Source: Prorocentrum cordatum (Eukaryota). From it: a stretch of 55,490 nucleotides of DNA. The stretch spans positions 62,001 to 117,490 of the forward strand of contig CAUYUJ010000154.1 in assembly GCA_963575745.1 (NCBI GenBank), written 5' to 3'. A model generated the notes under the pieces. The model saw only the letters and a list, made by a program, of their open reading frames with translations, had not been told where the DNA came from and searched no databases. This document shows positions 3,719-55,490 of this stretch, in pieces (position 1 is the first letter of the stretch; every line of letters begins with the position of its first letter). Position numbers and translations under genes: made by a program.

Positions 3719-4196
3719 AAGTCGGGCGTCGTGTCCCCCTGCAGGGGGATTTTGGGCGTTTTGTTGTTGTTGTTGTTGTTTTTATGTGTATATATATATG
3801 TGTGTATATATATATATATATATAAACAAAAATACCCCCCGAATAGGAAAACATAGTCAAAACATCGTCCCCTGACTATTTTCTGCCTATTCCTGAACAT
3901 CCCCCCTGCAGAGGGACACGCCCGACTTCACTCTGGGGCCTGCGCGACGACAAGCAACGGCGCAGCCGGGTGTCTGGGAGAGGGGTGCGCGGAGGGGCCG
4001 GCAGGGCGGCGCTGGGCTTAGGTCGGGCGTGTCCCCCTACAGGGGGATGTTCGACGAAACATCAAAAATACCTAAAAAAATCCCCAAATGGCCACAAAAT
4101 GCTCAAAAAATAGTCCCCAGACTATGTTTGGACTATTTTTGGGGTATGTTCTATTTTTCGTCGAATATCCCCCTGTAGGGGGACAGGCACGACTCA
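3719..4196. mobile_element. Two neighbouring MITEs with AGTCGGGCGTGTCCCCCTGCAGGGGGAT TIRs (3719-3928 and 4019-4196); third, interrupted copy at 35832-36239
   Basis: TIRs of about 28 bp with AT-rich interiors; flanked by TTA/TCA/TGA-like triplets, suggesting Harbinger/Tourist type (inferred). Confidence 0.75.
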
Positions 4197-4955: not shown

Positions 4956-5819
4956 AAATTCGCCGGCCCAACGGGCCAGAGGCGTGCTAAGATCTCCGGT
5001 AACTGGTTAACAATTCTCTAGTTCGCGCGCGCGGGGCGGCCCCTGGGGGTCCCCAAACGAAAAGTACCCCGGGCGATCCCCGACCGATCCCCGGGAGACT
5101 CCCCCAGAGCGCTCCAGGAGCGCTCCATGAGCGCACCAACAGGGCTCCGAGACGTCCCCGAGAGCCCCAAGGAAGGCCAAGAGGCCCCCAAGAGGCCCCC
5201 AAGATAGTACACGAGGGGTCCGACATGCCACAAGATCGCTCCAAGACGCCCAAGATAGCCCCCAGACGCCCCAAGAGGCCTCCAAGAGCACTCCCAAGAG
5301 GGCCCCCGAAGGCAAAATTCATTGTTTTTCCTTAGGTTTTTGACAGATTTTGGAGCTTCCACCTTTTCGGCTTCCCGACGCCCCAAGACGGCCCCAAAGG
5401 CCCCCAAGATCGCCCCAAGAGGGCTCAAGAGGCCCCCAAGAGGGCCCCAAGATGGCCCAAGAGGGCTCGAAGACGGCCCAAGAAGTCTCCAAGACGGTCC
5501 AAGAGGGCCCCAAGAACGCCCCCAAAGGGGCCCCAGAGAGGGAACACGAAACAACATTTCGAGCCCTCGGCCCTAAGAAGCCCCTACGAGGCCCCAAGAG
5601 GCCCCTAAGAGGCCCCAAGAGGCCCCCACGAGGCCCTCAGGAGGCCCCCAAGAGTCCCCCAAGCGGCCCCAGGAGGCCCCCCAAATGCCCCCCCGAGCGC
5701 CCCAGGAGTCCCCCAAGCGGCCCCAGGAAACCCCAAAGCGCCGCATTGACACCAGGCCCTCGGGCAAACGGCAGACATGAGACTGTATGGGCCGGCGGAA
5801 TGAGCGAAGCGATTAATAA
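4956..5819 (+). mobile_element. Helentron/Helitron2-like non-autonomous element (CCAAGA-rich body)
   Basis: 5' AATTCGCCGGCCC is inverted to 3' GGGCCGGCGGAAT, followed by an imperfect GCGAAGC hairpin. Confidence 0.55.
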
Positions 5820-12300: not shown

Positions 12301-14470
12301 CACCATCGTCGGGAAGCCGCTGGATATCAACTGGCGACATCTGGTCGATACCCTGGCCAGCCCGAGCCTTCATGAGCGTGGTGGCTCTGAGGACTCGCTC
12401 TGGCGTGAGAGGCGGCAGCTGCTCGTCGTCGCGGGCCGCCTGGATCTCGGCAAAAAGGGCGGATACCTCGCAGAGATTCACTTCCGACGGGCTCCAAAGT
12501 GTGTGCCATTTCTTAGCCTTGAGATCAACGATGTCCCTGGGGTCAAAAATAATCCCCCCCTCCGAAATAAGCTCGAACGGGGGGGGGGGGGGTCTGCAGA
12601 GGGACTTATGCAAAACTCCCACAGCGGGGGCCGACAGGACCCAGGACCGAAACTCTTCCAATGATGATTGGAGCCCCCTCCGCCTGACACGACCAGCAAC
12701 TCGTTTAGCAACAGAGGCTAGGTGAGAAAGCTTGGCAAAAGGCACCTCGTCGATGCTCATGAGATATGCTTGCCAGAGAGACCATGATCCACCCGCGGGG
12801 TCCAGACTCGCAAGCGGCAAGTGCACGCTGGCGGAGATATCTTGCGCAAGATCTTTACGCGCACGCTCGAGACGACTGCGCTGAAGCTGACCATTAGATT
12901 GGGTAAGATGACGGTGGAGATTCTGCAAGACAGTGCACACACGATCCCCACCAACACGCAACCATGCCATGCAGCGGTCCCTGGCGCACTTTACCCAAAA
13001 CGTGATCCTTAGCCCCCTGGAAAATCGGACCAGGCCCCCTGGATCGCCCTTCCTGAGAAAGCCCATGATGGTCCTGAATAGCGGGTTCGACCGTACAAAC
13101 CCATTGCTCGCAAAAGCGCACTGACACCCAAGATGCGCCCTCAACCTGCAGCAAACGCGGCTGCATCGCGAATGACTGGCCAGACACTGCCGTAGTCACG
13201 GGCAGGTATGTAGCCAACCTCCTGCTTAGCCGCGGCCCACGTCTCTGAGGACATGCGGAAGCCAGGTGGGGAAGGGAGGGGGGGAGAGGAGACTGAATCC
13301 CCTCCTGACTGTCAGCACTTACGGGGGCTGGGGGCTCTTGATTATCATCCGCGGGCACGTTGAACTCATCTGCGGCCTCTCCGACATCAGGGAAGAGATC
13401 GCCATCTTCGCTCGGGGCGCGAGCCCCAGGTGGAGGGCCCAGGGGGGAGGACAGAGACAGGGGAGCGCCATAACTCTCTTCGTCGCCGTCGCCACCTTCA
13501 GCTCCACCAGCGGCAGGCGCGCGAGAGTGCGCAGACTGACTGACTTGAAAGCCCTGCTCGTGCAGGTCACCGCACAGCTCGTCGTATTGCTCGTCGGCAA
13601 AAGCCTTGGCAGCTAGCCGTCGCTCGTTGGAGGCGGCTTTACTCTTACTGGACTTCGACCCAGGCACGGGCATGGCTTTCGGCCGCGGGACCTGCGGAAG
13701 CTTCCGCGCCATTTTGAGCACTCGACAGAGCAGCTGCTGGGCGGAGGACCTCAAACGAACGATAGGCCCGCAGTGGGGCCCCCGCGGGACGTCAAGGCAG
13801 CCGTCGACAGAGATGAGATAAGGGATGCTAGAAGAGCTGGCGACGATGTAATCGATATGGGTGCCGCCACCGAGCGCACGCGTGTAAGCGAGGGATGCCT
13901 GAACGACGACACCTCCCACTCTCTCCAAAAACCCAGCTCGCTGCAGAGTAGCCGCAGGCAGGTTAAAGTCGCCCGCCACAATCCACGGGGGCCGACATTG
14001 GAGGAGCAGGGCTCCGAGGCGCGTGAAACGCTGCAGGTCCCTGCCCGCGATGCCTTCCTCGCAGAAGCCGTAGAAGGTAATGAGAATGAATGAGAAGCCT
14101 TTCTGGTGGCAGACTACCGCAGTAAACCCATCTAAGGCGCTGGAGCCGTCGGCAGCGAGATCGCTCCATACCGCCTCAGAGGAAGCAAGGGAATGCACCT
14201 GGAGGTGTTTTCGAGCTAAAACCCATTCCCCCCCCTCGTTCGCACGGGCTTGCCCCTTCAGAGTGATGGCCGTGCCTGTGGCTCGAGCGGGGCTCGCAAA
14301 AAACTTGAGGTGCGCCTTGCTGGCCAAATCCAGCCAAGGCGCGAGTGGGTCGGCAGACTCGACATGAGTCTCACAGACTGCAAGATAACGAAAAGACTTC
14401 AACCTGGCACCTGTGAGAAAACACCGCGCTTTCTTGCCCATAGCCGTGACATTGGCAAAACAAAGGCGCG
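9328..14470 (-). pseudogene. LINE ORF2 (APE endonuclease, reverse transcriptase, RNase H, C-terminal Cys motif), multiply frameshifted
   Basis: APE: FANVT, AVCETH, IVAGDFN, THIDYIV. RT: LLPKKSGGDRVIGLL, LLDVEGFYDSI, IVQG, and WIGD at the YxDD position. RNase H: FGDASGG, TVPRGEL, IDN, GNTAADALA. C-terminus: WFCSSCG...[10 protein letters not shown]. Confidence 0.9.
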
Positions 14471-14570
14471 TCTCAGATGGTGAGGCTGAAGTCGTCCCCG
14501 AATCGGGAGAGGACGAGCGCGGCGCAGTCAGCTGAGACTGCGACTGGGCGCTGGCCCCCTCAGGCGGCGA

Positions 14571-39380: not shown

Positions 39381-41079
39381 CTGCCGCGAGCACAGGAGCC
39401 CACGCCCCCATGACGCAGACAAGCGAAGGTTCGGCCGAGGGTAAAAGAAAACGTTGTGTCCCCCAGGGACCGGGTTTCATAATGGAAAGGGGGCCACGGC
39501 ACGGGTCGGTAAGTTTACACTTGGGCGCCCGAGTTATCGGGGGTAACTCGGGTCCGGGGTAACTCGGGTTTGGATTCCCGAACAAGGAACCCGAGTTAGC
39601 CCTGACCCGAGATACCCCTGATGATGTGGGGCTCTGGACGCCCGAATTATCCGGGGTAACTCGGGTCCGGAGTAACTCGGGTTTGGATTCCCGAAAAAGG
39701 AACCCAAGTTAGCCCTGACCCGAGTTACCCCTGATGATTCGGGGCTCTGGTACACTACGTTGGGGTCCTCGGCCACAGCCTACTCTTTTCACAGGCATAA
39801 ATGGCAAGCATAGCTGGTGGTATTCAGTACCCAATGGTGGACCGATATAACGAATTGTGCCACTCACCAGAGCGAGCATGACTGCCAACCTTTCCCCGTC
39901 TTCCCCCCCTTTTCTTGTTTCTCCGCCACCTGTTCCCCTATCCTTAGTGGCCACGATTGGGGGGGGACTGGCATAGGGAGGGGAACGTCGACCTGAAATC
40001 GGCGATACATCGCCGAGAGATCCGCGATAGAGCCCCGACAGCAAACCCGCACGTTTTTGGGCGGGGTGGGTCTATCAGACCCTCATCGGCGATCAATGGG
40101 CCATGAGGGGTCGACGCAGTCGAAAGTGATATGATTGTACTAAACCTTAGGCGTGTAATAGTGCTCCATGACTTATCCAGCAGGTATGGGCAGGTAGATG
40201 AGAGATAAAACATGGGATGATGGAATACAATGTCGAAGGATCTGGAAGTTTCCTCTTCCGTTGTGCAGATGCAACAGTGCTTCGAGCATGTGGCAGCCAA
40301 ATCAACATAGGCGCGCGCCGCTTGAGTCCAAGCGGCGGCGGACGCAAGCGCGTCACTCGCAGGCGCACCTTCACCTCCGCTTAAAGTGATGTATCTCCCT
40401 GCCTATGCCTACAGTCGGCCCGCATCGTAAGGATGCGCGATAAGGATGTGAGGGCCTTGGACGTCCATTCCGAAGCTTTTCGAGCGGGGCGCGGCCAACG
40501 AAAGTTGTCAAGGATGGACCGAGGAGGCAAGGATTCGGGCCGGCCGAAAGGGGGGGGATAGCAAAGGGGGGGTTTGAGGATCAGCTCACGTAGCTGATTT
40601 TCCCGGCGCCTCCCGGCGCCAGAGGCGGCTATGTATCGAGGACTGGGCCCCTCAGTGGGGCCGAAACCAACTGCATGCAACAGATTTCGTAACCCCCCCT
40701 TTCCCAATTCCCCACCGTTCGTCCGGCCCGAAGGATGCAAGGATTCCCTTGGCAAGGGTGCCATTCCTTACTATGCGGGTTGATCCTCCGCATTCGCTCT
40801 CCCTCCGCCTGCTCCTCTCGAGATCTCCAATGCTCGGCACCAGCCCCCACGCCTGCGGCCGCTGCCCGGCAGCGCCCTCCCACCACGTACTGGCTGCCGA
40901 CGAGACGGAGGCAAATTGCGCCAGCTCGCCTCCCCCCAAATCTCCCGGCCAGCCCCCCCCACCACCACCAGCCCTCCTCTTCCTCCTCATTCTCCTCCTC
41001 CTCCTCTTCCTCTTCCTCCTCCAACCACCAGCCCTCCTCCTCCAGCGAGCCCGCCTCCTTCCCCCCCCCGCCCTCGCGC

Positions 41080-41157
41080 CGCTCATCGCGCTCTGCCGCC
41101 CGTTGAAGTTCAGCGTGCCGCACACCACCAGCGGCCACCGGCGGCCCCCGCCGCCCC
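41080..41157 (-). CDS. Host gene micro-exon A (GGGGRRWPLVVCGTLNFNGRQSAMSG), EEP/sphingomyelinase-like protein
   Basis: CAG|G acceptor and G|GC donor; 78 nt; high GC3. PLVVCGTLN resembles the EEP motif P-h-h-h-x-G-D-x-N. Phase-compatible with exon B. Confidence 0.65.
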
Positions 41158-44100
41158 CTGCGGGTGGTGGTCGCCTTCGTCGTAGTTTTTGTATCGTCGT
41201 CGATCGCAGTCGGTGACATCATCCCGGCGTCGCCTTCGAGGTCGTCGCCCTCGGAGGGGGGCCAGGGGAGACAAAGGAGGGAGGAAAAGGGGAGGCAAGA
41301 GGGAGAGAGAAGGCGAGAGAGGCGACACACGGCACTATTGGGGAGATGTCTGCCTCGTTTATGTGTTCTCTCTCTCTCTCTCTCGTCATGAATGTTTGGT
41401 TCTCTCTCTGTCTCTCTCTTCTATCTTTGTCTCTCTCTCTCTCGCGATATCTGCCTCCGTGTCGCTGGTTACGGAATGTGCGTATTCTCAGGTCCTTTGC
41501 CTAATCCCTGAAGCACTCCTGAGGAGTGTTTCAAAGGCCTGGAGCCCAAATTCACAAATCTCCTGGTCCTTCCCGCATCTTCTCGGGGCTTGTCACGTGA
41601 CCGTTTCGGGCCCAAGAGTGCCCCAAGCCGGGCCATGAGGGCCCTCGACGCTCAAGACGGCCCCCAGACGATCCGAGAGGCCCCCAAGCCCCAAGAGGCC
41701 TCTAAGAGGCCTCCCAAGAGGGTCCCAAGAGGTCCAAATCACTGAGTGTCCTAGAGTTCGTCCTTGGTTGGGCTCTCGATTTGACTAGAGCATTGTAGTC
41801 GAGTCTTCTCCTTCTCCTCCTTCCTCCTCCTGCCTCCTGCTGCTCACTTCCTGCATCCTGATTCCTCTTCCTTCTCTTGCTCCTCCCCTCCCTCCTTCGT
41901 CCTGCTTGCGTAGCAGCCCCGTTGTGTCTGCCTCTCTCGTGGGCTCCTGGGAGGTGGTACCTCGCAGCTCTCTTGGGGGGGGTCCGAAAGGTGCAATTTC
42001 CGCCACCTTCGTGCGCTTGGGAGGCCAAGCGGGCTCGGTAGTCACGCACACAACGTCGAGATCTCGCGGCGCCCTGCGGGGCTGAGACATGCGCAACAGT
42101 CACGACGTTCGTGGCCTCCTGGGAGGCCTAGAGGGCTCGGCATTCACGCACACCCCGTCGAGACCTCGCGTCTCCTGGTGGGGCTGCGAATTGCAAAAAA
42201 AAACGTCGCCACTTGTCTGTGCTTCTGGGAGGTCCAGCGGTGTGGGTAGTCACACACACACACACACACTCTCTCTCACACACACACCTTCTAGCTCTCG
42301 CAACACCCTGGTGGGCTGCAACCTGTGCAGCCGTCGCCCCTTTTCGTGGGCTCCCGGGAAGCCCAACGAGGTCAGCAGCCACGCAGTCACGGTTACACCC
42401 CGTCGAGACCTCTCGGCTTCTTTCGGCGTCGGACATCCCTTTAGTAGACCTCCCCTGAAAAATGAAACCAGCCTGGGACCGAAACCGACGGACCTGGACC
42501 CGCAAAAATGACGGCCTCGACGCCCTTTCGCGAACCGAAAACGGCCAATTCCTTAATCGACGCGTCAGGGTAGGAGGTCTGTCCACCCCCGATTCTTGCG
42601 GGGCTGCGGACTGCGCAGCTGTCGCCACCTGTGCGGGCTCCTGGGGGGCCCAGCGGAGTCGGTAGCCACGCACACCCCGTCGAGACCTCGCGGCTCCCGT
42701 GCGCCTGCCTCGCTCAACGCGACGCGCTGTGCTGCTGTAGAGCGGGCGGCGCGGTTCTGCACCGCGTATGTCGTGCTCGGCGCTGCTGTTGTTTTGTTGA
42801 ACGCTCACTTCTGAAAAGTAATTATTGTTGATCCCCCCACCGGTGCATACTGTTTTTCTCCATCGAAGTGTGCCCCTCGACGCTCGCACGGTGTTTTTTT
42901 ACAAGGAAAATCATGATGTTCAAACTGGGCCCCTGGCCCCCCCGGATTACAACAACAACGGTTCCCGCCTGAGACTTCATCACAATTTAGCCAGGACCGC
43001 CGCTCCCGCCCGAGACTCTTTCACATTGGTTTCAGGAATCGCGCTCTCGCTTGGGACTTCCTTACAATGTATTCAAGAATCGCTCTCCCGGCGCTCTGGG
43101 GTCGCGCTCTCGCTGGAGACTCGCGTGCAATCTATTGCAGAATAGCGCCGTTGTTTTGGAATTTCTTGCAATTTGCTCAAGCGCCGCGCTCCCGACACCC
43201 AACCACCCAGGAGTCGCGCCCGTTGTGGTCCCATGTGCGTGCCCTTCGTGGCCCCGCTGTCGCCGTTTGTGGCCCCCTCGCTGTCCTACGTAGCTCAGTT
43301 GCTACCCTCAGTGGCCCCATCGTTGCTCTCTGTGTCCCCGCATTATCTGCCCTTCGTGGCCCCCGCTCGTTCGCGCTCTTCGTGGCCCCATACGCATTCC
43401 CTTCATGTCCCCGCTGTCGCCCTTCGTGGCCTACTTCGTGTCCTTCGTAGCCCTGCTGTCGTTCTCTCTCGCTCTCGCTTTTGCTTGTCGTCGCCGTCGT
43501 CGTCGTCGCCGTTGTCGTCGACGACGTCGCCGTTGTCGTCGACGTCGTCGTCGTCGTGGTCGGTCCCCTGCCCGTCCCTCTTGGGGTCGGGTCGACGGTC
43601 CGCGGCCGCCCCGCCGATGAGCGCTGCCGCTGGCCAGGCCGACGGTCCGCGGCCGCCCCGCCGCTTGCAGGGGCCTGGCCTGCAGGGAAAAAAGGTATAC
43701 CCCCCAAAGGGGTTCGATCGAGTACGAAGGGGGCGGGTATCGAGGGTTTGGGAAGTACGCGTTATTGGACACTCGGGCAGATAAGGGCGAACAGTCTTAA
43801 AAGGATTGTTGTTGTTGCTGTTGTTGCTGAACATGTATGTCCCTCGTTGGCCCTTATCCGTCAGCTTCTGTCTTCGTCTCTACACCGATATTCCTGCATG
43901 TTGTCTTGTGCACTTATGTCGGCCCCTGCGCACTGCGAGCTCTTCAACACGGCTGTTCGTAGCCAGCGGTCCCGTGTATATATATATATATATATAATTA
44001 TGAAAGAGCATGATCCACCGCCGCTTTACTGTGGAAAATCCCCCGCCCTCTTCCTACGGAACCCGGGGGTCCCCCCCCCTCCAAAAATCCCCCACCCCCC

Positions 44101-44431
44101 CTCTGCCGAACCCCCCCCTCCCACCCGGCAACACCCCCCCTTCGCCCTAACCTCCCCCCCCTCCGGAAAACCGGGGGGGGTTACTACCGGTTCGACCCCC
44201 CCCCTCCGGAAAAAACGGTAATGACCCCCCCCGGGGGGGGGGTTCGAACCGGTGTTCTTGGGGGGGGATTCGAACTGGAAGTCCCCCCCCCTTTCATGAT
44301 GGACTGGGGGGGGGGGGGTTCGGACCGGTGGTGACCACCCCCGTTTTCGGGGGGGGGTCGAACTTGTAGTGACCCCCCTCGGTTTTCCGCCAGCATCGGT
44401 ACACACGTTCTTTCACATATATATATATATA

Positions 44432-44499
<68 letters not shown>

Positions 44500-46207
44500 C
44501 GTGTGTATGTACACTGTAGATATATACGCACATACATCGAACCGCCATATGTTTAGGAAGGGTTGGGCATGTCACCAAATAAATGAAGGTGCTTGGCGTT
44601 CTGGCCTGTTCGGCTTCCCGATGCTCCAAGACGGCCCCAGAGGCCCCCAAGATCGCCCCAAAACGGCCCAAGAGGCCTCCAAGAGGGCCCGAAAACGGCC
44701 CAAGAGGGCCCCAAGAGGGCCCAAAAGGCGCCCACGACGGCTCCAAGAGCGGGCCCCGATGGGGGACCCGAGCTGACATTTCGAGCACTCGGCCCCGCGG
44801 GACCCCCAGGTCCCCAGAGGCCTCCCACGAGGCTCCCAGGGACCCCCAACAGGCTCCCACGAGGCCCCAAGATGCCCCAACCTGCCCCCAAGAAGCCCAC
44901 GAGAGCGCCCCGAAGAAACTCAAAGAGACATCCCAGAGAATTCTGACCCACAATCTGTGCAGTGTGGCGCGATGGGCTGAAAGCCATTTGACTTGCTCAG
45001 CGCGGGAGCGGGAAGCGCATGTACTTTCAGGGCGCACGAGATCGCCTGCTTGCACGCAATGGTATCATGACCGCTTTGGCATCACATGGGCCGTCTTGGA
45101 GATACTTTGAGCTGATGGGGAAACGACGCGCTAACGCGGAGCTTGCGCGAACTTACGCAGAGCTTACGCGAACTTACGCGGATCTGGGGGTCGCCGTGCC
45201 ACCACCCTCAAACTCTCTCTAACTTGCTTTCTCCCCGCTGAAAGGGTAGTGCCCGTTATTCCTCCTCCTCCTCCTCCTCCTCGCTGCTCCTTTTTGCTGC
45301 TGCTGCTGCTCCTCCTCTTCCTCCTCCTCCTCCTCCTCCTCCTCCTCCTCCTCCTCCTCCTCCTCCTCGCTCCTCCACACCCTCGCTTCGCCTCGCTCCT
45401 CCTCGCCCCTCCTCCTCCTCCTCCTGCTCCTCGCTCCTCCTCCTCCTCCTCCTCCTCCTCCTCCTGCTCCTGCTTTTCGCTCCGCCTCGCTCCTCGCTTC
45501 TCGCTCATCGCTCCTCGTTCCTCGCTGCACTGCCTCCCCGCTCCTCGCTGCTCGTTCCTCGCTCCTCGTTCCTTCCGCTCCTCCTCCTCCTCCTCCTCCT
45601 CTTCCTCCTCCGCCTGGCTGATCCTTCTCCTTCTCCTCCGCCTCCTCTTCGTCCACCTCCTTCTCCTCCTCCTCCTCGTCCTCCAGTTCCATCTCCTCCT
45701 CCCTCTCCTCCTCCCCCTCCTCCTCCATCGCGTCCTCCTCCTGCTGTTCCTCCTCGTCCTCCTCCTCCTCCTCCTCCTCCTCCTCCTCTGCCTCCTCCTC
45801 CTCCTCCTGATACGCCTCCTCCTCCGCCTCCTCCGCCTTTTCCCCCTCATCCTCCGCTCCTTCTCCTTATACCAAACTTCTCCCCGTCGCACTCCGATGC
45901 TAGTTTTTAGACCGGGCCGGGCGTTTCGCTTGAGACTTCTTTACCACGTATGGCCCTGAAGCTTCAAACATGACAACAGCCTCACAGATGGAGGGCCGGT
46001 GGTATTCAACATGTGGCTCTCGCCTTAGCGCCCCGCGCACTCGTCGTGAACATGTGCAAGAGCTTCACGCATTGGGGGCGGGCGGTTTCTTTAACGTGGC
46101 TCTCGCCTAAGCGCCGCGCGCACCCGTCGCAAAACATTGCAAGATCTTCGCGGATTGAGGGCGGGTGGTTTTCAAAATGTGGTATAGATCACCGGGGGCC
46201 TTGGCTA

Positions 46208-46503
46208 CCCTAGGCCCTACCCAAGGCCCTAGGCTTCCCAAGGGTAGGCCCTACCCAAGGCCCTAGGCTTCCCTAGGCCCTACCCAAGGCCCTAGGCTTC
46301 CCAAGGGTAGGCCCTACCCAAGGCCCTAGGCTTCCCAAGGGTAGGCCCTACCCAAGGCCCTAGGCTTCCCAAGGGTAGGCCCTACCCAAGGCCCTAGGCT
46401 TCCCAAGGGTAGGCCCTACCCAACCCAGAGGGTTGCAGGTTCTAATTCCTAGAACGTGCATGTAAATGTGATTACGTTCTAGGTTCTAGGTTCTAGGTTC
46501 TAG
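46208..46503. repeat. 34-bp minisatellite (about 6 copies) followed by (GTTCTAG)x4
   Basis: Unit GGCCCTACCCAAGGCCCTAGGCTTCCCAAGGGTA, with near-identical copies. Confidence 0.9.
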
Positions 46504-46854
46504 TTGATACGTTCTTCTATTTTGTGGTTATATGCCTTTTATATATCATAGTTTGCGTGATATCACTATATACCGTTGCCGCGTTGAGAAGTTTAGGAAA
46601 CACACAGGGGTGCCGCCAATTTGGTTGCGTATCGGGCCTTCCCAAGCGTTTCTTAAGGTCCTCGAACCGTCGGTTTGCAACGAGGTCAGTGATAGAGGAG
46701 AGCGAAGGAGGAGAGAAGAGCAGGAGAGAGAGAGAGAGAGAGAGAATACGTGTGTGCGTGTGTGAGAGAGAGGGAACAACACAAGGGATCGAGAGGAGGC
46801 ATTTGTTGCTCACCGCCGCTCGATCGAGCGCGCCACGCGTGGCACGCGCGAGGT

Positions 46855-47170
46855 CTAGGCCTGGCCTCTCTTGGCCTATCCTGGCCTCCTCGCCTCTGTT
46901 GGCCTCTCCTGGCCGCATCTCCTGCGGCCTCCTTGGCCCCCTGCCTCCTAACCTCTTCTGGCCTCTCCTGGCCTCTCCTGGCCTCTCTTGGCCTCTTCCT
47001 GGCCTCTCCTGGCCTCTTCCTGGCCACTCCTGGCCTCTCTCCTGGCTTGTCGTTCTGGCCTCTCTTGGCCTCTCTCCTGGCCTCTCTCCTGGCATCCTCT
47101 CCTCTGGCCTCTCCTGGCCTGGCCTCTCCTGGCCTGGCCTCTCCTGGCCTCTCCTGGCCTCTCGTGGCCT
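46855..47170. repeat. (GGCCTCTCCT)n degenerate 10-mer array
   Basis: Seen directly; related motifs at about 48720-48795 and 53940-54090. Confidence 0.85.
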
Positions 47171-48172
47171 CACGGCCCGTTCGGGCTTGGCCTGTCCTCG
47201 AAGCCCTCGAATGCAGCCCTGCTGCGCACGATCGCGTCGAGACCAGCCTGCCTCGCCTGATCGACGATCGCTTCGAACTCCGCCGCCGCATGGTTGAACC
47301 CCTCATCAATCAAGCGCCGCTCCACCTGGTGCCTCTGCGCGGGCGGCAGCGTCCTGACGAGCCGCGTCACCTCCGCGTCCACGCAGTCCTATATCTGGGA
47401 TTTGGAACACCTCCACGTCCTCCCTCGCCACCCTCTCCACCTAACTGCCCCGTTCTCCTTCCTCCGATTCGTAAACCCCCCACCCTCCCTCCCCCATCGG
47501 TCCTTGAGCGAAGTCCCGAAGGGATAGCACGCTCGAATCTCGTCCTGCCAGTGCGCGATCGAGGCCACCATGAACGCTGGCACCATCGTCAGCGATCTGT
47601 TGACTTCGAAGCGCTGCGCGGCGCGGACCTCCCGCTCACGAGGGCTTTGTGGGACGCTCTCGGTGGGGCCTCCTAGGGCCCTGAAGTCTTCCTTCAGCAG
47701 GAGAAGTTCCTTGGGGTGTCCCCATCCCCCCGTCATCGCATCCCGCGCGAATGAGATGATCGCCCCCCCTCCTGTGGCTTCGAAGCCTACTCGGATTACG
47801 CCAACATCGGGCCCGAAGACGGCCCTCAGCGGGGCCGATGGGACTAAACGTGGGAGGAGGTAGGGGGAGAACGGGATCGAGTAGGAGTGGAATCGTTATA
47901 TAGGAGCCAGAGTATGGGAAGGACTTTGGACCCAGTGGGTCCTCTTCGGCCAAGGGCCTCCACTGAGCCCTGTTCCTCGCTGAGAAGATGTCCAGCACGA
48001 TCCAGCGCATCGTGAATATGCAGAAGCTGATCTCTGCGAAAGGGGACTCGTCGCTGGATTCGCCCATCTCCCAATCCACGTTATCCTGCCTCTGCCCCTC
48101 CTCTGATCTGGCGGATCGCGAAACCGCTCGAGCCAGGAGCGGCGTCGGCGGTGCAAGGGAGGGAAACAACAT
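47170..48172 (-). CDS. Unknown, probably spliced gene (three ORF segments)
   Basis: Consecutive protein-like minus-strand segments at 47636-48172, 47389-47736 and 47170-47382; splice junctions not resolved. Confidence 0.35.
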
Positions 48173-48321
48173 GCAGTCTCCTCGCTCATCGCTCCGCCCC
48201 TCTAGACTTTTTGGCAGTTCTTATCTCAGTACCGCTCTCTCGAATCTCTCACTCTCCCTCCTCTATCTCTAAAGCTCTCTCTATATATAGTCCTCCCTTT
48301 CTCTCCTTTTAGAGGGTATCT

Positions 48322-48384
<63 letters not shown>

Positions 48385-48794
48385 CTCTCTCTCTCTCTCT
48401 ATTTCTCTCTCTCTCTCTCTCCCCACCTCTCTCTCACTCAGGTTTCAATCTCGGCAGGCTCCCTTGACTTGCCGCCTCGCCAGTTCAGCGAGCCCTCCTC
48501 CTCTCGAGTGTGGGGGGTGGCGGGAAAAAAAGAGCGGAGGAGCCAGACGTGGAGGGTTCGGATGAGGAGAAAGATGAGGAACCTGACGGAGCTCGAGGGG
48601 CGGGTGAGGAGAGCATACCTTTCCTTGGCCGCGGCGACGCCACGCGCAAGTACGTCGCATGGCTGCGCGGGCATGGGCCCTCTCAGCTCGCCCGTGTCGC
48701 CTCGGCTCGTCCTCACCCTCCTCGCTTGGCCTCCTCGCATCGCCTCTCGCCGCGCCTCCTCGCCTACTCGCCTCTTCGCCTCTCCTCTCCTCCT

Positions 48795-50247
48795 CTAGGC
48801 GGGCTCATCCCTCCTGTCGGGCCAGCATGAGCTCGAGCTTGATCCCCACCAGCCCTGGCGCTGTGAGGAGTCCTTTGCCCACCAGCCCTGGCGCTGCGAG
48901 TCCTTTGCCCACCAGCCCTGGCCCTGCGATTCCCAGCTGGGCACCCTGCTCGTCCAGTCCTCCTCCCGCGGCTTATCCTTGCACGGCATTGCTTTAGCTG
49001 GTGCCCCCGTGTCGTCTATGGCTTCTGGCTCTTCGAGGTCGTTCTTCTCTGCCTCCTTGCGCTCTTTCGCCTGCTTCGGCTCTTTCTTGCGTTTCTTCTT
49101 CTCCCTATCTTTCTCATCTGCCACTTCGCGCTCTGCTGCCTCCACCTGCTCAGCTGGCTGCGTGGCGATATCGATCTCCTTCTCGGGATCCACTGGAAGG
49201 CGCAGAATTTCCTCGTCCTCCTCCACTGACTTGATCGTCCGCCCCCCGCTTTTCTCTTGCTCACGGGTTCTCTTCGCGCTCTTCATCGCAGGGAACACGA
49301 AATTGTCATGATAGAGCTCATCCAATCGTCGACCGAACTCCCGAATTAAACCGAACATCTCATCAACTCCAGGCTTTCCCGCGTGCGACGCGATGATCTC
49401 GAATAAGGCCTTTTCCTTCGAGATGATCTTCACGTTGAGCACCTCATCTTCTTCGCGGTCCCAAGCCATCATGTAGTTTGGGCCCCCCATGGCCTTGTCA
49501 TTGTCTCGCTTCAGGGTTGCCTTCGGCCTTAAAATCAAGCGCACGGTCGTGAAATCTCGCCGAGTGTCCCAGCTGCTGTCGTCCATCCGCTGCTCGGCGA
49601 CCTTTGGGATGACAGGGCGAGGCGAGGAGGAGGGATGACACAGGGGGGATGGGAGGGGCGGCAAGGAGGATGTGATGCGGACCTTAGCCTCCAGCTCTTC
49701 CGCATCCTCGGCCTTCAAACGCGAGGTCTCCTCGCGGCGCCTTGTTTTTTTTCTCCCCCCTTGCAGCGATGTCATCGAAAATGCGCCTCGAGTTCTTGTC
49801 CGACTTCTTTTTCTCCTTTATCTTCTCAGCTTTCTTGTGCTTATTCTGATTCTTTCCCTCCTCCTCTGGATCTCGAGCTGTCTCTTCCGCTGGCTTCTCC
49901 TCGTCCCAGTCAAGCGAACATGCTGGCGACCTCTTGCCATCGTCGTCGGCATCTGATGTACTCGAGGATATATCTTCTTGCGGCTTAGCTCTCTCCCTCT
50001 TCTCGTCTAGCTCGTTCCTAAACTTCGCCAGCATCTCGTGCGCGAGCGCCATTGCTTGAGGAGTGATGTCAGGTGGGCACTCGACCTCTTTCCTCGCCTC
50101 GGCATCCTTCTTCTGCTCATTGGCCCCTCCTCCTCCTCCTCCTCGAGATCCTCCTCCTCCCTCAGCGCTGCTCGCCGCCTGCATGGCGTCGCACGGCCGC
50201 GGCCGCACGCTGGGGCGCAGCCAGGGTTCAGCCGAGCGCGGCTGCAT
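48795..50247 (-). pseudogene. Unknown charged protein downstream of the transposase, split by a frameshift or intron near 49700-49775
   Basis: Overlapping 187-aa and 326-aa ORFs with protein-like composition and a globular-looking core (FTTVRLILRPK...YHDNFVFPAM). Confidence 0.5.
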
Positions 50248-50261
50248 ATAGAGAATTCACC

Positions 50262-50632
50262 ACATTCCTACGGTCAACATTCCTACGGTCAGAACTCCTA
50301 CGTTGCAAATTCATACGCTCAACATTCCTACGGCACACATTCCTACGCTCGACATTCCTACGCGTAGGAATTGGGAGCGCAGGAATTCGAGGCGTAGGAG
50401 TTGGGAGCGTAGGAGTTGGGAGCGTAGGAGTTGCGAAGGAGTTGCGTAGGAGTTATTATGTGTTTCTCTTTAGGAGGCGAAGGGGTTGCGAAGGAGTTGC
50501 GTAGGAAAGTGGGTGCGTAGGAGTTTGAAGTTGCGTAGGAAAGTGAGTGCGTAGGAATGCTGTGCGTGGGAAAGTGAGCGAGGGAGTTAGAGTAGGAATG
50601 TCGTGCGTAGGAATGTTGCGAAGGAATGCTTT
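50262..50632. repeat. CATTCCTACG / CGTAGGA(A/G)T motif array that switches orientation at about 50362
   Basis: About 6 forward copies, the palindrome ATTCCTACGCGTAGGAAT, then more than 10 reverse copies. Confidence 0.85.
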
Positions 50633-50659
50633 GCTATATATGCCATCAACCCTCTGGCA

Positions 50660-53183
50660 TCAATCCTCTCTGGGCCGCTTATTCCGGGTTCTGGGGTCGC
50701 CATCCTGGATGTTACCGTGCAAGTGGGTGACTGTGTTCATGCGGCCGAGGACCTCGAAACATTGGAACACTGATTTCTCCATGGTGGCCCTGTGGGACCG
50801 TTCTGCGCACAGCCTCAAAAGATAGTTTAGAGACTCATCCACGAAAGTGTCGTACTCTGAAGGCGACCCCATGCATTCGCTCCCTGTGGGACCGTTCTGC
50901 GCGCAGCCTCAAAAGATAGTTTAGAGACTCATCCACGAAAGTGTCGCACTCTGAAGGCGACCCCATGTATTCGCTCCTAGGGGTGCACAAGAACCCCCCT
51001 TCATTTCTCATGCCCCCCTTCCCTGTTCATCCTTAGCATCTTTCCCGTTCCCTGACCCGTCTTCCTCCTCCTCCTCCTCCTCCTCCTCCTCCTCATCATC
51101 CCCTTCTCCTCCTTATAATGCTTCCAGTGGTTCAAGTTTTTAACCCCATGCTCCTTTTCGTCAGTTGCCCGAAGAGGTGGAACTTCGGAGTGGAGTGGAT
51201 CTTAGCGAGGTCGCAGTTCACCAGGAAAACGACGCAACTCTCGCGCAACACTTGGTACTCCGACACTGTCGGCTTAGACTTCGCGGAGTGGTAAACCCGC
51301 ATCCAAGTAAGCAGGGCCTCACCTGCTTCAACGAGCTCCTTTCCATGCGGGACTTCGCAGCCCGATCCTACATGATACTTCAACTTGTTGACTGCGAACT
51401 TCAGAATCTGGAAGGTTTCCGAACCTTTCAACTTGCAAATTCCTCCTCCAAAGCAGGCGCACTCCTCTCCTGGAAACATCTTCTCGTTCAGCGTTCCGAT
51501 CTTATTTTCATGCGGCACCTCCTCCTCCTCATAATATGTCATGAGTTCTGCCTCAAGTCGGTTCCAAACCGTTGATCGCGGCGCACCCCAAGGATTTGCA
51601 AACGTGAGTCTGCGCAAGACCGCGCTGACATACCTCTGCATGCATCCAAGGTGCACCGTGTGCAACGTGTCTAGCGCGAGCGACCGCACTGGCGATGTCC
51701 CGAGCGCCGCGCTGAACAGGGGGGACCTGTGAGTAACTGAGCCTAGTTTCCGCCCCAGGCAATCGCATCTCGGCCGCCAGAACACAGCTTTGAAGGGCAA
51801 GGGTACCTTGTGAAACTCGAGAGGTATCAGGCATTCAGGAGACGGCTCAAGACGGTCACCTTCCAGCAAGCCTAAGGGCGGACAATCGGCTTTCAACAGG
51901 AGGCCTTTGTTCTTCACTGGCACCAGCAATGCCCACAGCTTCCTGCGCGTTTCTTCTGTACCCACAACTACTTCGTGCTCGAAGGATTTACACGTTTCTT
52001 CGTACTCCTCCTCAGATCTATCTTCCCACAGCAAACCGCAGTTGTTCAAAAACTCGCCGTCCACGATCGGCAGCCCATCCTTAGAACATGGGCATATCGG
52101 ACAGCAGTCGTGCACGCACCCCCACCCAGCTAGGCCCATGGATTTGGCGAATTCTGCCCAGTCGCCTTTCAGCAGCACGACAACGCTCCTGAACGAAAAT
52201 TGCGTGGTGGGTTTCTCCCATGCTTCCCAGTCTGACCCGTCGTGTTTCTTGTCTGGCACCGAGCCCTTTATGAGGCATTGCAGCTGGAAGGACGCAACCT
52301 GCATCATAGAGTATATGGAGCAGTGCCCGCCACAACCACACCCGCACATTTCGCTCACCTTCATGAAGCCGAGTTGATGTCTCTTTTTTGATATCATATT
52401 TATTATTGAAACGTCCAAGATGCTGCCCTCCCTCTGAATTTACAAAGCACCCTGGCGCGTGAGCTGCATGGTTACCCCCCCCTCGCTAACGCCGAATGGT
52501 TGTATGTGTTGTTCGCGTGTACTTGTGAAGGGGCGAGGGGCGGGTGGGTGAGGGGGCGGCGGAGCTGACGCAGTCGAGAGCTCGTTTCGACCAGCCGTCT
52601 GCGCCGTGTACCTTACACCATCCATGTACACTGCCAAAGGCAGTGGGTAACCTCCTCCCTCCTGTAGGCACTCCTGGACGTGGGGGTGTTCTTGGTACAC
52701 CCTATTGGACATGAAACTGCTGTAATCGCCCGTGTCACCGTACCTCAACGATTCTTGAATGTCTTTATTCTCCTCGACTTCTGCTGCGATCGAGTGGAAG
52801 ACCTGCCTAAATAGGACCGTCTTGCTGCATTCATGCGAAGCCTTGCTCAGGAACGCTGGCACTCGAGCAGCGTAGAATGGCCCTCCGCCGGGCAAGTGTT
52901 TGTCCATCTCTTTTTTGCATCTGCCCGATTCAAGATCGGGCGGAAGACCGAAAGTTGACCATCTTCCTCCTGGCACATTGCATTGGGCTAGGTAACCACA
53001 GACAACACAAAAGTCTTTAGCTGATATCTTTTTGCACGAGGCCCATACAGTTAGCAGGATCTCAAAAGCCTTGCTTCCAGCAAGCCGCATCTCCTCTCCA
53101 GCCTCATTGCGTATGTACTGCCTTTTTGGCACTCCTCGGGCTGCCTTCGAGCGGCGGCGCCATTGCTTTTTTTTGGGCGCCAT
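50660..53183 (-). pseudogene. Spliced CACTA/EnSpm-Plavaka-like (CMC-type) DDE transposase; about 3 exons; C-terminus disrupted
   Basis: Starts MAPKKK. Motifs in order: VYMDGVRY, CGCGCGGHC, LKGDWAE...CCPIC, DTLHTVHLG, PKFH, MGSPSEYDTFVDESLN. Introns at about 52430-52585 (junction uncertain) and 50977-51153 (GA-AG). A 94-bp duplication frameshifts the last exon. Confidence 0.8.
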
Positions 53184-53670
53184 CTTAGATTGAGCCAACG
53201 TTGCTGCTGCAAATACAAACGCTCGTCTCTCTCTCTCTCTCTCTCTCTCTCCCTCTCTCTGGCATCTCAACCTCCTCTCCTCCTCTCTTCCCCCTCCTCT
53301 CCTCCCCCCCCCTCCTCCTCCTCTCCCCCCCCTCCCCCTCCCATCACTGCTCCTCCCGCCCTCCTCCCTCGCATGGGCCCCACGCCCACTCTCCGAAGCT
53401 CTACGTTCTACGATCTGCCTTCTCATTTTCCTGGGCACCCGCTCGCACTGTCCCATGCGGCCCCGTCCACAGCAGGGAATGCTCAGTGCTCGGCTGCCTC
53501 GCGCTCGCGCGCCTCCCGCCGCCTGGCTCTCCTCCCTCCTCAGCAGCTGCAGCCTCAGCGCCTGGCACGAGTCACAGCCGTCGAAGGTTTGAATTGTCGG
53601 CTGGGGCCCAATCGGGCCGCTCGCGAACGCTTCCCCGCCAGAAATCCCCTCTCCCCAAAGAGGCCCCCCA

Positions 53671-53805
53671 AACTCCTACGCAACTCCTTCGCAATTCCTC
53701 CGGTACATGTTTCTCCTACGCTGTCGTTGTTTTACATATATATAAATGGTTTCCTCCTCTTTCCTACGCATTCCCTCCGCCCAACATTCCTACGTAATTC
53801 CTCCG
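53671..53805. repeat. Second CCTACG motif array, inverted relative to 50363-50632
   Basis: AACTCCTACGCAACTCCTTCGCAA is the reverse complement of TTGCGAAGGAGTTGCGTAGGAGTT at about 50431. Confidence 0.75.
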
Positions 53806-54091
53806 GTACATGGGCGGCTGGGCGGATGGAATTTTCGGTGAAAACCACGTCGGATCAGGTTTTTCCTGGATCGGCCCTGGATCGGATCCCATTTTCCAGA
53901 ACCCCTCCTCAATTCCTCGCTCCTCCGCAAGCCTCCTGCGCTCCAGGCCTCCTGCCTCGAGCAGCCTTCCTCGGGCTTCCCGCCGCCAGCGTCTCTCCTC
54001 GGGCTTTCTGCCTGCGGCGCCTCTCTTCGAGCTTCCGCCTGCGCCTCTCCTGGGGCTTCCTGCCGTCAGCGCCTCTCCTCTCCTCGGCCTC

Positions 54092-55490
54092 CTAGTCCGA
54101 GTCGCTCGGGCTCTCACTTTTCTTCTGCTTCTCTTTCTTGTCCTTCTTGATCGCAGTCTTCTTGCCGCTCGATCCCCTGGGCTTCGCAGCTTCGCGCAGA
54201 CGCATCTCCTCTTCGTCTCTCGCCCAAGCCTGGCGGACTAGAACCTTTGCTTCCAGGAGAAGCTCTTCGATGTCTTTCTTCCAGCCCGCCACCTTGCCAC
54301 ACTGTGTCTCAAACTCAGCTGCAGTCACCTGGAGGCCGCTTTTTTTCGGGGGGGGGGGGGCGTCTAAACCCGAAACCGTTGTCCTGGGCTCTGGGAGTCA
54401 TGGCGAAATGGCCCCTCTCAAAATCTACACCCTCCAATCGGTTTCCCCAAATCCTCACATCCCCGCCTCGTCCCTCTTCGAATGCTCATCCAGCCGCGCC
54501 TGCTTCTTGTACGAGGCCTCATCCGTGACCATCATCTTCTGCAGGCTCTCGCTGGCAAACAGGCTCTGCACCTGGGCACGGACGGAGGGCGGGGAGCACC
54601 ATGAGATAGGATACCTTGTAAGGAGAGGCGAGCAGAAGGAGGGAGGCCAAGGAAGAGAATCAGACGACAAGAAGATGATTTAAACACGCCCACGGGCTCA
54701 GGATGCGGGGCGAGGGGTCCGAAGAACCCCAGGGTGCACGCGCGGCGGACGAGCTGAACGGTGGAGGTGGACAGGCAGCTTCGAGGTATCAAATTCCCGA
54801 ATTAATGGCAGGAGGGGCGGGCGCGAGAAGCTGACGAGCTATGGGAAGCCCATGGGCGATCGGCACGCCAATCAAGGCGCCTTATTCAGCTGGTCGTCCA
54901 TCGGCTTCCTCAGGTCATTCAGCTTCTCGCAGGACTTGTCGGTCTTAATGAGAGCCTCCACCTTGGATACCTCACCAAGGGCCTGCGTGTATGCCTGCTT
55001 CACGGCTCTGAACTTGGTCAGCCACTCTGGTGTTTTTTTTAGGCTCTTTAGGCGCCTTGCCGCAGTCTTTCTCCTTGACGCCGCCTTTTGATTTGCCGCC
55101 GTCTTTGTCTTTTTCTTTGCCAGCCTCTTTGGTCTTCTTGCCTTTCTCACTGTCTTTAGTCTTCTGCTCGTTGTCCGCAGTGCCTTTATCCTTCTTGTCT
55201 TTCTTTGGTTTGTCGCCCTCTTCGTCGGAGCCCGCTGCGCCCTCCTCTTCCTGATCCTCGATCTTTCTCCTCTTAGACGGTGGTTCCTCTTCTTCGTCGT
55301 CGTCTGCACCTCTCTCTCTCTGCTGGCCGCCGCCGCCCCATCCTCAAGAGCCGTTTCGTTCAACCACTTCTCAGTGCGAGTCCACCTTCTCGTGAATCTG
55401 TCGTTCAGTTGGTGACGCACGAGGAGAAATTCAAGGATGCCTCCCAGATCGCAGTATCTTGTGTAGATCCCGCCCATGATCGCACAACTA
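54092..55490 (-). CDS. Unknown Lys/Glu-rich, coiled-coil spliced gene upstream of the transposase (5' end outside window)
   Basis: GC-AG introns at 54572-54880 and 54329-54499 give an in-frame LNK|VQSLF...YKKQ|VTAAEF...SDSD*. Two apparently compensating frameshifts flank an acidic/Lys-rich stretch at about 55035-55320. Confidence 0.6.

What the first reader, a model, noticed from the sequence alone, without database searches (positions are those of the whole stretch)
46190..55490. Candidate giant multi-gene CACTA/Plavaka-like DNA transposon carrying three or more unknown spliced genes
Seen: from about 46.5 kb the MITE clutter stops. Four compact, co-oriented minus-strand genes follow one another, with short introns (about 150-310 nt) using GA/GC-AG sites, unlike the 2-14-kb introns of the host gene. 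Three are trailed by CCTCTCCT-rich repeats and two are preceded by (CT)n. Known: the order D (YMDG), D (KGD) + CxxC, DxxHxxxLG, PKxH, E (FVDE) is typical of CMC-superfamily/Plavaka-type transposases. Inference: the block is one element larger than 9 kb, with accessory genes I cannot assign to any family.
Basis: partly seen in the sequence, partly recalled or inferred. Interest (0 to 1): 0.75.

Follow-up and report, generated by a model that had tools for sequence, protein, structure and literature searches.

The report
Compact RAG1-fold transposon, not a giant
The block holds one small, probably decaying jumping gene of about 3.5 kb whose enzyme is folded like the RAG1/Transib cutting enzymes, set among unrelated single-copy reading frames rather than inside a giant multi-gene element.

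Summary
There is a real transposase gene on the minus strand (53183 to 50660). It has three exons and two short GA..AG introns of 156 nt and 177 or 274 nt. The family has no Pfam hit, but it is very large: 2017 representatives at E<=1e-3. A confident model (pLDDT 92) matches RAG1 (Z 15.3), BbRAGL (12.7) and Transib (11.8). With its C(2)C and H(3)H motifs, this places it in the CMCT clade (EnSpm/Mirage/Chapaev/Transib/Plavaka).

The ">9 kb multi-gene element" reading is not supported.
- All 15 exact copies of an 8-nt motif in the 55-kb window lie in arrays just beside this one gene (50262-50625 and 53671-53794). These bracket a unit of about 3.5 kb.
- Three independent relatives have the same single gene between like arrays 2.3-3.6 kb apart.
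- The flanks match none of 72 related loci.
- Two flank ORFs have no homologues.
- The whole block lies at single-contig depth, while the repeats upstream reach thousands.

This copy looks impaired: Q replaces a zinc-binding His, and a 94-bp tandem duplication shifts the frame of the last exon. Termini and target duplication were not found.

The parts
50262..50362 (+). Outer left array. Six copies of TCCTACG at a 15-nt period on the + strand. It forms a palindrome with the inner array, centred near 50362/50363.
   Evidence: (D11, D13, I1)
50363..50625 (-). Inner left array, just 3' of the gene. Ten copies of TCCTACG on the minus strand, inverted relative to the right array.
   Evidence: (50426-50454 against 53699-53671: 29 nt, 96.6%; 50486-50506 against 53694-53674: 21 nt, 100%)
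50660..50879 (-). Last exon as read from the second copy of the 94-bp duplication (model B). It carries FVDESLN and the conserved C-terminus; stop codon at 50660-50662. It is used only if the acceptor at 50880/50879 is used.
   Evidence: 697-aa product that aligns to the ends of the relatives
50788..50975 (.). Tandem duplication, 2 x 94 bp at 97% identity, covering the start of the last exon. 94 is not a multiple of 3, so reading from the best-fitting acceptor (50977/50976) shifts frame after AERSHR and stops in 50835-50837 (model A, 671 aa).
   Evidence: (D14). No Logan contig spans it (records 5 and 6), so it rests on the window's assembly alone.
50977..51153 (-). Intron 2, 177 nt, GA..AG, followed by G.
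   Evidence: The junction gives TKRSEYMGSPSECDTFVDE, the same length as the relatives.
51154..52427 (-). Exon 2. Holds CGCGC, KGDWAE (second D), CPIC, DTLH and PKFHLFGQ (Q in place of the second His).
52428..52583 (-). Intron 1, 156 nt, GA..AG, followed by G. It holds an in-frame stop.
52584..53183 (-). Exon 1 (200 codons): the helical N-terminal domain and the first catalytic D (YMDG).
   Evidence: P0037 aligns from its residue 1 at 53183
53223..53260 (.). (CT)n on the + strand, which is (GA)n 40-80 nt upstream of the start codon.
   Evidence: (D4, D9)
53671..53794 (+). Right array, 490-610 nt upstream of the start codon. Four copies of TCCTACG on the + strand.

Best explanation
The block contains one compact, single-gene cut-and-paste DNA transposon of about 3.5 kb (about 50262-53794, gene on the minus strand). 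It sits between unrelated, single-copy host-type reading frames of a dinoflagellate-like genome.

Its roughly 670-700-aa protein belongs to a very large, unnamed family of the CMCT clade.
- It has an RNase-H-fold DDE core.
- It has a zinc site built from C(2)C just after the second D and H(3)H just before the E.
- The overall fold is that of RAG1/Transib.

Inferred mechanism, not shown here:
- The helical N-terminal domain binds the arrays of an 8-nt core motif (15-nt period) that flank the gene.
- Two ends are paired, and the DDE site nicks and then releases the element, as RAG1 and Transib do.
- The element reinserts with a short target duplication.

This particular copy is probably inactive or decaying. 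It is single-copy, has Q at a conserved zinc-binding His, and carries a frame-shifting 94-bp duplication in the last exon.
For: Gene and family:
- tblastn of 10 relatives places a single gene at 53183-50600. The splice junctions fit the relatives residue for residue.
- 33 homologues were found. One search gave 2017 representatives at E<=1e-3, 1023 at <=1e-10 and 193 at <=1e-30.
- In 47 aligned sequences D289, E292, C309, C312, D456 and H459 are invariant. D181, CxCGC and PKxHxxxH are conserved in 90% or more.

Fold:
- AlphaFold model of relative P0006: pLDDT 92.1, pTM 0.91.
- Foldseek: all 41 hits at E<=1e-3 are RAG1 or RAG-like, best 3.2e-6; the next fold is at E 0.23.
- VIA-align: RAG1 Z 15.3 (443 aligned, rmsd 5.0), BbRAGL 12.7, HzTransib 11.8, P element 10.6, Hermes 6.3.

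Boundaries:
- TCCTACG occurs 23 times against 3.76 expected, and 0 of 100 shuffles reach 23. Twenty of the 23 flank the gene.
- All 15 exact GCGTAGGA/TCCTACGC copies in the window lie in 50000-50999 (12) or 53500-53999 (3).
- The two flanks share inverted matches of 29 nt (96.6%) and 21 nt (100%).

Relatives:
- L003, L008/L009 and L033 have the same single gene between arrays of their own motif, 2.3-3.6 kb apart.
- 29 of 72 loci hold a 9-mer four or more times, often at a contig end.
- 17 of 72 loci encode the protein as one uninterrupted stretch of about 600 or more residues.

Neighbours:
- 0 of 72 loci match the window's flanks.
- Two flank ORFs have no homologues.
- Depth is flat at 13-34 across 46721-55490.

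Decay:
- The second His of H(3)H is H in 44 of 47 (A1) and 24 of 25 (A2); the window is the only Q.
- The 94-bp duplication is shown.
Against: - No terminal inverted repeat, CA..TG terminus or target duplication was found, so the ends of the unit are inferred from motif arrays only.
- Array orientation is not consistent in the family. It is inverted in the window and in L003, but direct in L008/L009 and L033.
- The left side also has an outer array in the opposite sense, which is unexplained.
- No Pfam transposase model matches, and the PDB sequence-profile search gave no transposase. The catalytic assignment therefore rests on the motifs and on a predicted structure of a relative about 36% identical to the window's exon 2, not of the window's own protein.
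- Most related contigs are 1-4 kb long, so the co-occurrence test has little reach beyond about 1-3 kb of flank.
- Contig depth is not a strict copy number (note).
- No whole genome was available.
- Single copy plus introns would also fit a domesticated gene.
Confidence: 0.68

Rival explanations
1. One reading: the whole of 46.2-55.5 kb and beyond is one giant CACTA/Plavaka-like element, and the three other ORF sets are its accessory genes.
For: - All the ORF sets are co-oriented on the minus strand and compact.
- Giant Plavaka elements of 17-19 kb with three accessory genes exist in red algae (passages of 10.1101/2025.02.11.637652).
- Earlier notes report giant multi-gene transposons elsewhere in this genome (unchecked).
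- The window ends at 55490, so an outer terminus cannot be excluded.
Against: - The only shared repeat motif brackets the transposase gene alone. None lies near 46.2-46.5 kb or after 53.8 kb.
- The flanks match 0 of 72 related loci, and left and right flanks do not match each other.
- Two flank ORFs have no homologues.
- The block lies at single-contig depth with no diverged copies at 80% likeness or more.
- Relatives are single-gene units of 2.3-3.6 kb.
- Co-orientation is expected anyway in dinoflagellate genomes, which have unidirectional gene clusters (recalled, no call).
Confidence: 0.06
2. A domesticated or host-retained gene derived from a transposase. It is no longer mobile and is kept for a cellular function. 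The flanking arrays would be relics or regulatory repeats.
For: - Single-contig depth.
- Two spliceosomal introns with host-type GA..AG sites.
- The end of exon 2 coincides with the point where the predicted proteins of several relatives lose similarity, which suggests old, conserved intron positions.
- Clusters of close relatives are small: 1-4 members each.
Against: - A conserved zinc-ligand His is lost, and a frame-shifting duplication sits in the last exon. Both argue against purifying selection on this copy.
- Motif arrays recur around the gene in relatives, and contigs often break in them, as expected of repeated transposon ends.
- The family has thousands of diverged clusters, which is typical of mobile elements.
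Confidence: 0.15

Closest known systems
RAG1 and Transib transposase (solved structures 6dbo, 6xny, 6b40 BbRAGL, 6pqx HzTransib)
   Same: - Whole-length fold match: model residues 36-685 against the RAG1 core, Z 15.3; BbRAGL 12.7; HzTransib 11.8. Foldseek prob 1.0.
- The same order of first D, second D, C(2)C, H(3-4)H, E.
- Spacings in relative P0006 are D181-D289 = 108, D289-C309 = 20, H631-E651 = 20. As I recall, these are close to mouse RAG1 D600/D708/C727/H942/E962; those RAG1 numbers come from no call.
   Different: - About 10-13% identity in the structural alignments.
- No hit to Pfam's RAG1 domain models at E<=1, and no PDB sequence-profile hit.
- No RAG2-like partner nearby.
- The ends are arrays of a short motif rather than demonstrated heptamer/nonamer-like inverted repeats.
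- The target duplication is unknown.
EnSpm/CACTA, and the wider CMC/CMCT clade as defined in PMC12730594 (passages read)
   Same: [quoted passage not shown]
- The C(2)C follows the second D closely.
- Repeated short motifs near the ends, as in CACTA subterminal repeats (the CACTA feature is recalled).
   Different: - No PF02992 (Transposase_21) match.
- No CACTA or CA..TG termini and no 2-5-bp duplication found.
- One gene only.
- The unit is about 3.5 kb.
Plavaka (PF18759), including the giant Plavaka elements of red algae (10.1101/2025.02.11.637652, passages read)
   Same: Nearest named clusters by protein-language-model features: 20 of 30 named hits, best 0.91 with 155 shared features. This is a lead only. 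It shares the same CMCT motifs.
   Different: - No PF18759 hit in 18 sequences at E<=1.
- No accessory genes shown to travel with it.
- The Plavaka termini TGT..ACA or CATCA..TGATG were not seen at the array edges.

Membership tests
CMCT clade (EnSpm/CACTA, Mirage, Chapaev, Transib, Plavaka, ESTA, Lanisha, RAG1) | DDE catalytic triad on an RNase-H-like core | tested here: met
   D181 (90% or more), D289 (47 of 47) and the E of DESLN are conserved. The model matches RAG1, Transib, P element and integrase cores.
CMCT clade (EnSpm/CACTA, Mirage, Chapaev, Transib, Plavaka, ESTA, Lanisha, RAG1) | [quoted passage not shown] | tested here: met
   Family: C309 and C312 in 47 of 47, first His in 46 of 47, second His in 44 of 47. 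The window copy has CPIC, but PKFHLFGQ with Q at the second His.
CMCT clade (EnSpm/CACTA, Mirage, Chapaev, Transib, Plavaka, ESTA, Lanisha, RAG1) | 5'-CA..TG-3' termini and 2-5-bp target duplications | tested here: inconclusive
   Termini could not be located. Only motif arrays were found. There is no second copy and no empty site.
Plavaka (PF18759) | Match to the Pfam model | tested here: not met
   0 of 2 window ORFs and 0 of 16 relatives at E<=1. HMMER's filters can drop very weak matches.
EnSpm/CACTA (PF02992 Transposase_21) | Match to the Pfam model; CACTA termini with a 3-bp duplication | tested here: not met
   No PF02992 hit. No CACTA termini were seen at the array edges; the termini part is inconclusive.
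Transib/RAG1 | RAG1-type fold with ZnC2/ZnH2 modules | tested here: met
   Z 15.3 to RAG1 and 11.8 to HzTransib, over model residues 36-685.
Transib/RAG1 | Sequence-level membership (Pfam RAG1 domain models; PDB profile search) | tested here: not met
   No hit at E<=1. The profile of 47 sequences finds no RAG1 or Transib chain at E<=10.
Giant multi-gene transposon (as in red-algal Plavaka with PAG1-3) | Accessory genes recur beside the transposase in several copies, inside shared termini | tested here: not met
   - 0 of 72 related loci match the flanks.
- No diverged copies of the block at 80% likeness or more.
- Two flank ORFs have no homologues.
- Reach is limited by short contigs and by the lack of a genome.

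The most novel reading that the evidence does not exclude
The gene represents an undescribed, very large lineage of RAG1/Transib-fold (CMCT-clade) transposases of marine protists.
- It has no Pfam model and no name in any source.
- It has more than 2,000 clusters at 50% identity.
- Its elements are compact single-gene units marked by lineage-specific arrays of a short motif (about 15-nt period) instead of classical long inverted repeats.
- One sub-lineage has kept two spliceosomal introns at fixed positions through deep divergence.

If this holds, it adds a major protist branch to the group from which RAG1 arose.
Probability: 0.35. Interest if true: 0.55.

Novelty: new member of a known kind. 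Interest (0 to 1): 0.36.

Why it matters
It removes a tempting but unsupported claim of a giant cargo-carrying transposon. In its place it gives a concrete, testable object: a compact element of a large, unannotated transposase family with a RAG1-like fold.

- Such families are invisible to Pfam-based annotation. They probably account for many 'hypothetical proteins' in dinoflagellate genomes and marine metagenomes.
- A curated profile would improve repeat annotation there.
- It would also widen the comparative set for the evolution of the RAG1/Transib/CACTA group.
- The motif arrays offer a simple handle for testing how these enzymes recognise their ends.

Tried and rejected
- **Whole genome.** None is held. 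Copy number, termini and empty sites could not be sought directly.
- **RNA.** No RNA holder was listed among the sequencing runs. Splicing and expression are therefore untested, and the choice between the two acceptors of the last exon stays open.
- **PDB sequence-profile search**. It gave only cypovirus VP3 (E 0.0046 over 66 positions around the FWR..HRNPLF..DxLHT stretch). I treat this as chance and left it unexplained.
- **First try of the search for related loci** with 25 sequences failed for lack of a conserved stretch. It was repeated with the 8 closest.
- **L010.** Its 'inverted repeat' is AT/ATAC low complexity and was dropped.
- **L059/L060.** Arrays there lie partly inside the matched region, probably in introns or nested inserts. 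They were not used.
- **All-against-all blastn of the loci**. It showed mostly the same locus from different samples, so it gave no independent insertion sites and no termini.
- **tblastx of the block against the rest of the window**. It gave only a linked set of 11-43-residue pieces sharing one E-value, which I read as low-complexity noise. blastn gave nothing.
- **Codon-position GC of the flank ORFs**. It is coding-like but not decisive, and one row (geneB_glob) was out of frame and is void.
- **Protein Atlas hits**. They are leads only.
- **Earlier-findings look-ups** by sequence and by place returned nothing.
- **Fourth ORF set (53.8-55.5 kb).** It got only a Pfam scan; no homology search was left for it.
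Full report
**What the region is.**
- The window is GC-rich, about 55-66% in most 2-kb bins, and is eukaryotic.
- No whole genome is held for it.
- Earlier notes of this scan on other pieces of the same genome call it a dinoflagellate (unchecked).
- The GA..AG introns found here fit that. [quoted passage not shown]

**The transposase gene.**
- Two long minus-strand ORFs (52440-53675 and 51132-52439) lie in one frame, separated by a single stop.
- tblastn of 10 relatives places one gene at 53183-50600 and nowhere else in the window.
- Fitting to relatives and exact coordinates give this structure:
  - exon 1: 53183-52584
  - intron 1: 52583-52428 (156 nt, GA..AG)
  - exon 2: 52427-51154
  - intron 2: 51153-50977 (177 nt, GA..AG)
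  - a last exon starting at 50976
- A 94-bp tandem duplication (50788-50881 and 50882-50975, 97% identical) covers the start of the last exon.
  - Read from 50976, the frame shifts after AERSHR and stops at 671 aa.
  - An alternative acceptor at 50880/50879 (intron of 274 nt, also GA..AG) would give 697 aa, with the C-terminus that relatives share.
  - Which acceptor is used is unknown. No Logan contig spans the duplication.

**The protein family.**
- Neither window ORF, nor any of 16 relatives, hits a Pfam family at E<=1. The one exception is an irrelevant sub-threshold CRAL_TRIO_N match.
- The family is nevertheless large.
  - The word-indexed search found 33 proteins, best at 68% identity. 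None carries a precomputed Pfam domain, and the only names are 'hypothetical protein' and an EukProt Pyramimonas label.
  - The exhaustive search found 2017 representatives at E<=1e-3, 1023 at <=1e-10 and 193 at <=1e-30.
- Full-length members are about 650-700 aa.
- In 47 aligned members, D289, E292 (KGDWAE), C309, C312, D456 and H459 are invariant. D181, the CxCGC cluster and PKxHxxxH are conserved in 90% or more.

**Fold and classification.**
- An AlphaFold2 model of relative P0006 with this alignment is confident: pLDDT 92.1, pTM 0.91.
- Foldseek against the PDB gives 41 matches at E<=1e-3. Every listed match down to rank 44 (E 2.5e-3) is RAG1 or the amphioxus RAG1-like protein, best 3.2e-6. 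The next fold, ISCth4 transposase, is at E 0.23.
- VIA-align gives RAG1 Z 15.3 (443 residues, rmsd 5.0, model 36-685), BbRAGL 12.7, HzTransib 11.8, P element transposase 10.6, ISCth4 8.7, HIV integrase core 6.8 and Hermes 6.3.
[quoted passage not shown] He names this group CMCT, with mostly CA..TG termini and 2-5-bp duplications.
- The present family has these motifs, so I file it in that clade.
- I do not file it under Plavaka, EnSpm or Transib proper, because their sequence models do not match.
- Protein-language-model neighbours are Plavaka (0.91), RAG1 (0.87) and Transposase_21 (0.85). That is a lead, not a test.

**Where the element ends.**
- TCCTACG occurs 23 times in the window against 3.76 expected, and 0 of 100 shuffles reach 23. 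Twenty of the 23 lie beside this gene:
  - six on the + strand at 50266-50362
  - ten on the minus strand at 50363-50612
  - four on the + strand at 53674-53794
- All 15 exact 8-mers GCGTAGGA/TCCTACGC in the window fall in 50000-50999 (12) or 53500-53999 (3).
- The inner left array and the right array are inverted copies of each other: 29 nt at 96.6% and 21 nt at 100%.
- The arrays therefore bracket a unit of about 3.5 kb that holds only the transposase gene.
- I found no classical terminal inverted repeat, no CA..TG ends and no target duplication.
- The outer left array, which forms a palindrome with the inner one, is unexplained.

**Relatives.**
- A scan of metagenome contigs gave 72 related loci.
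- 29 of the 72 hold some non-simple 9-mer four or more times, often at a contig end.
- Three independent elements have arrays of their own motif on both sides of the gene:
  - L003 (the same element as L002): 1428-1560 and 4966-4994, inverted
  - L008/L009: 51-145 and 2406-2694, direct
  - L033 (the same element as L031): 96-306 and 3869-4088, direct
- The spacing is 2.3-3.6 kb. The orientation is not uniform, which weakens a simple 'inverted subterminal repeat' picture.
- 17 of the 72 loci encode the protein as a single uninterrupted stretch of about 600 or more residues. The two introns are therefore a feature of the window's sub-lineage.
- The predicted proteins of the closest relatives (P0003, P0004, P0036, P0038, P0039) cover only the window's exon 2. 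P0037, P0007 and P0008 lose similarity right after LTxR. This suggests that the intron positions are shared. It is an inference from ORF ends, not from spliced transcripts.

**The neighbours.**
- The three other 'genes' are sets of minus-strand ORFs at 46.5-48.2, 48.8-50.26 and 53.8-55.49 kb.
- They have no Pfam hit.
- The globular part of ORF 48795-49817 has no homologue among proteins of 187-595 aa. ORF 47392-47895 has none among proteins of 92-294 aa. Longer and shorter forms were not searched. The fourth ORF set received no homology search.
- tblastx of 46190-50250 and of 53800-55490 against the 72 related loci gives nothing at E<=1e-3. Most of those contigs have only 0.5-3 kb of flank.
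- The left and right flanks do not resemble each other, and the block has no blastn match in the rest of the window.

**Copy number.**
- Contigs of four public runs were laid at 80% likeness or more.
- In X1 (69% of sampled words; possibly the source sample), eight near-identical contigs tile 46777-55490. Each has depth 15-32.
- The summed depth per bin (13-34) equals that of a single contig.
- Eleven of the twelve bins in 40000-46203 sum to 547-40,079 from many contigs; the low-complexity bin 45170-45686 is 2.76. The only high bin inside the block (49823-50339) holds a CCT-type simple repeat.
- The marine metagenome runs X2 and X3 cover parts of the block at depth 0-8, with 0-10 differences per listed piece.
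- Contig depth is not a strict copy number. Even so, there is no sign of further copies of any part of the block at 80-99% identity.

**State of this copy.**
- The second His of H(3)H is Q in the window (PKFHLFGQ). It is H in 44 of 47 (A1) and 24 of 25 (A2) sequences, and the window is the only Q.
- Together with the frame-shifting duplication and the single-copy status, this points to an old, probably inactive copy.

**Mechanism.**
- Shown: the DDE/zinc motif set, the RAG1-like predicted fold, and the motif arrays around the gene.
- Inferred: binding of the arrays by the N-terminal helical domain, synapsis, DDE cleavage of the RAG1/Transib type, and reinsertion with a short duplication.

**Literature.**
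- I found no paper linking such a family to dinoflagellates. The searches were:
  - 'dinoflagellate, transposase, CACTA': 5 papers, none relevant by title or abstract
  - 'Transib, dinoflagellate': 4 papers
  - 'Symbiodinium, EnSpm': 2 papers, one checked and showing only a RepeatMasker fragment
  - 'RAG1-like, transposase, dinoflagellates': 0 papers
- Repbase and the supplements of PMC12730594 were not seen and may hold related entries.

**Verdict.** The transposase assignment is right in kind. The giant multi-gene element is not supported.

Noticed in passing
window 40000-46203: Very high-copy repeats. Summed contig depth reaches 40,079 in X1 and 130,233 in X6 (bin 43102-43618). That is about a thousand times the level of the block beside it.
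   Followed up: no
window 46177-46443: A 34-bp tandem repeat with about seven copies (three identical 68-nt double units) sits at the border between the repeat clutter and the block. Depth is 386 in X1, so the unit is multi-copy.
   Followed up: no
window 10074-14570, minus strand: Two long ORFs (617 and 558 aa) look by eye like retroelement ORFs. They were not scanned against any library.
   Followed up: no
window 46860-47197, 48738-48792, 54039-54093: Similar CGCCTCTCCTCTCCTC-like stretches lie just 3' of three minus-strand ORF sets but not of the transposase gene. They could be a host 3'-end or intergenic signal.
   Followed up: no
window 50262-50432: The left motif array is itself a palindrome: 72-nt arms, 76% complementary, centred near 50362/50363. 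It reads like a second, opposed end abutting the element's left end. Unexplained.
   Followed up: partly
proteins P0003, P0004, P0036, P0038, P0039, P0037, P0007, P0008: Predicted proteins of relatives at 33-68% identity start and/or lose similarity exactly at the window's exon-2 borders. This suggests that the two intron positions are old and are carried along by the element lineage.
   Followed up: partly
protein P0004: One family member is labelled Pyramimonas sp. CCMP1952 in EukProt. Either the family also occurs in a green alga, or that transcriptome holds foreign sequence.
   Followed up: no
alignment A1, profile positions 397-462: The family profile matches cypovirus capsid protein VP3 residues 171-237 at E 0.0046 in the PDB sequence search. 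This is probably chance.
   Followed up: no
L031 2180-2334 and 4630-4784: A relative's downstream motif array recurs 2.45 kb further on, 100% identical over 155 nt. There may be a second, gene-less or truncated unit in tandem.
   Followed up: no
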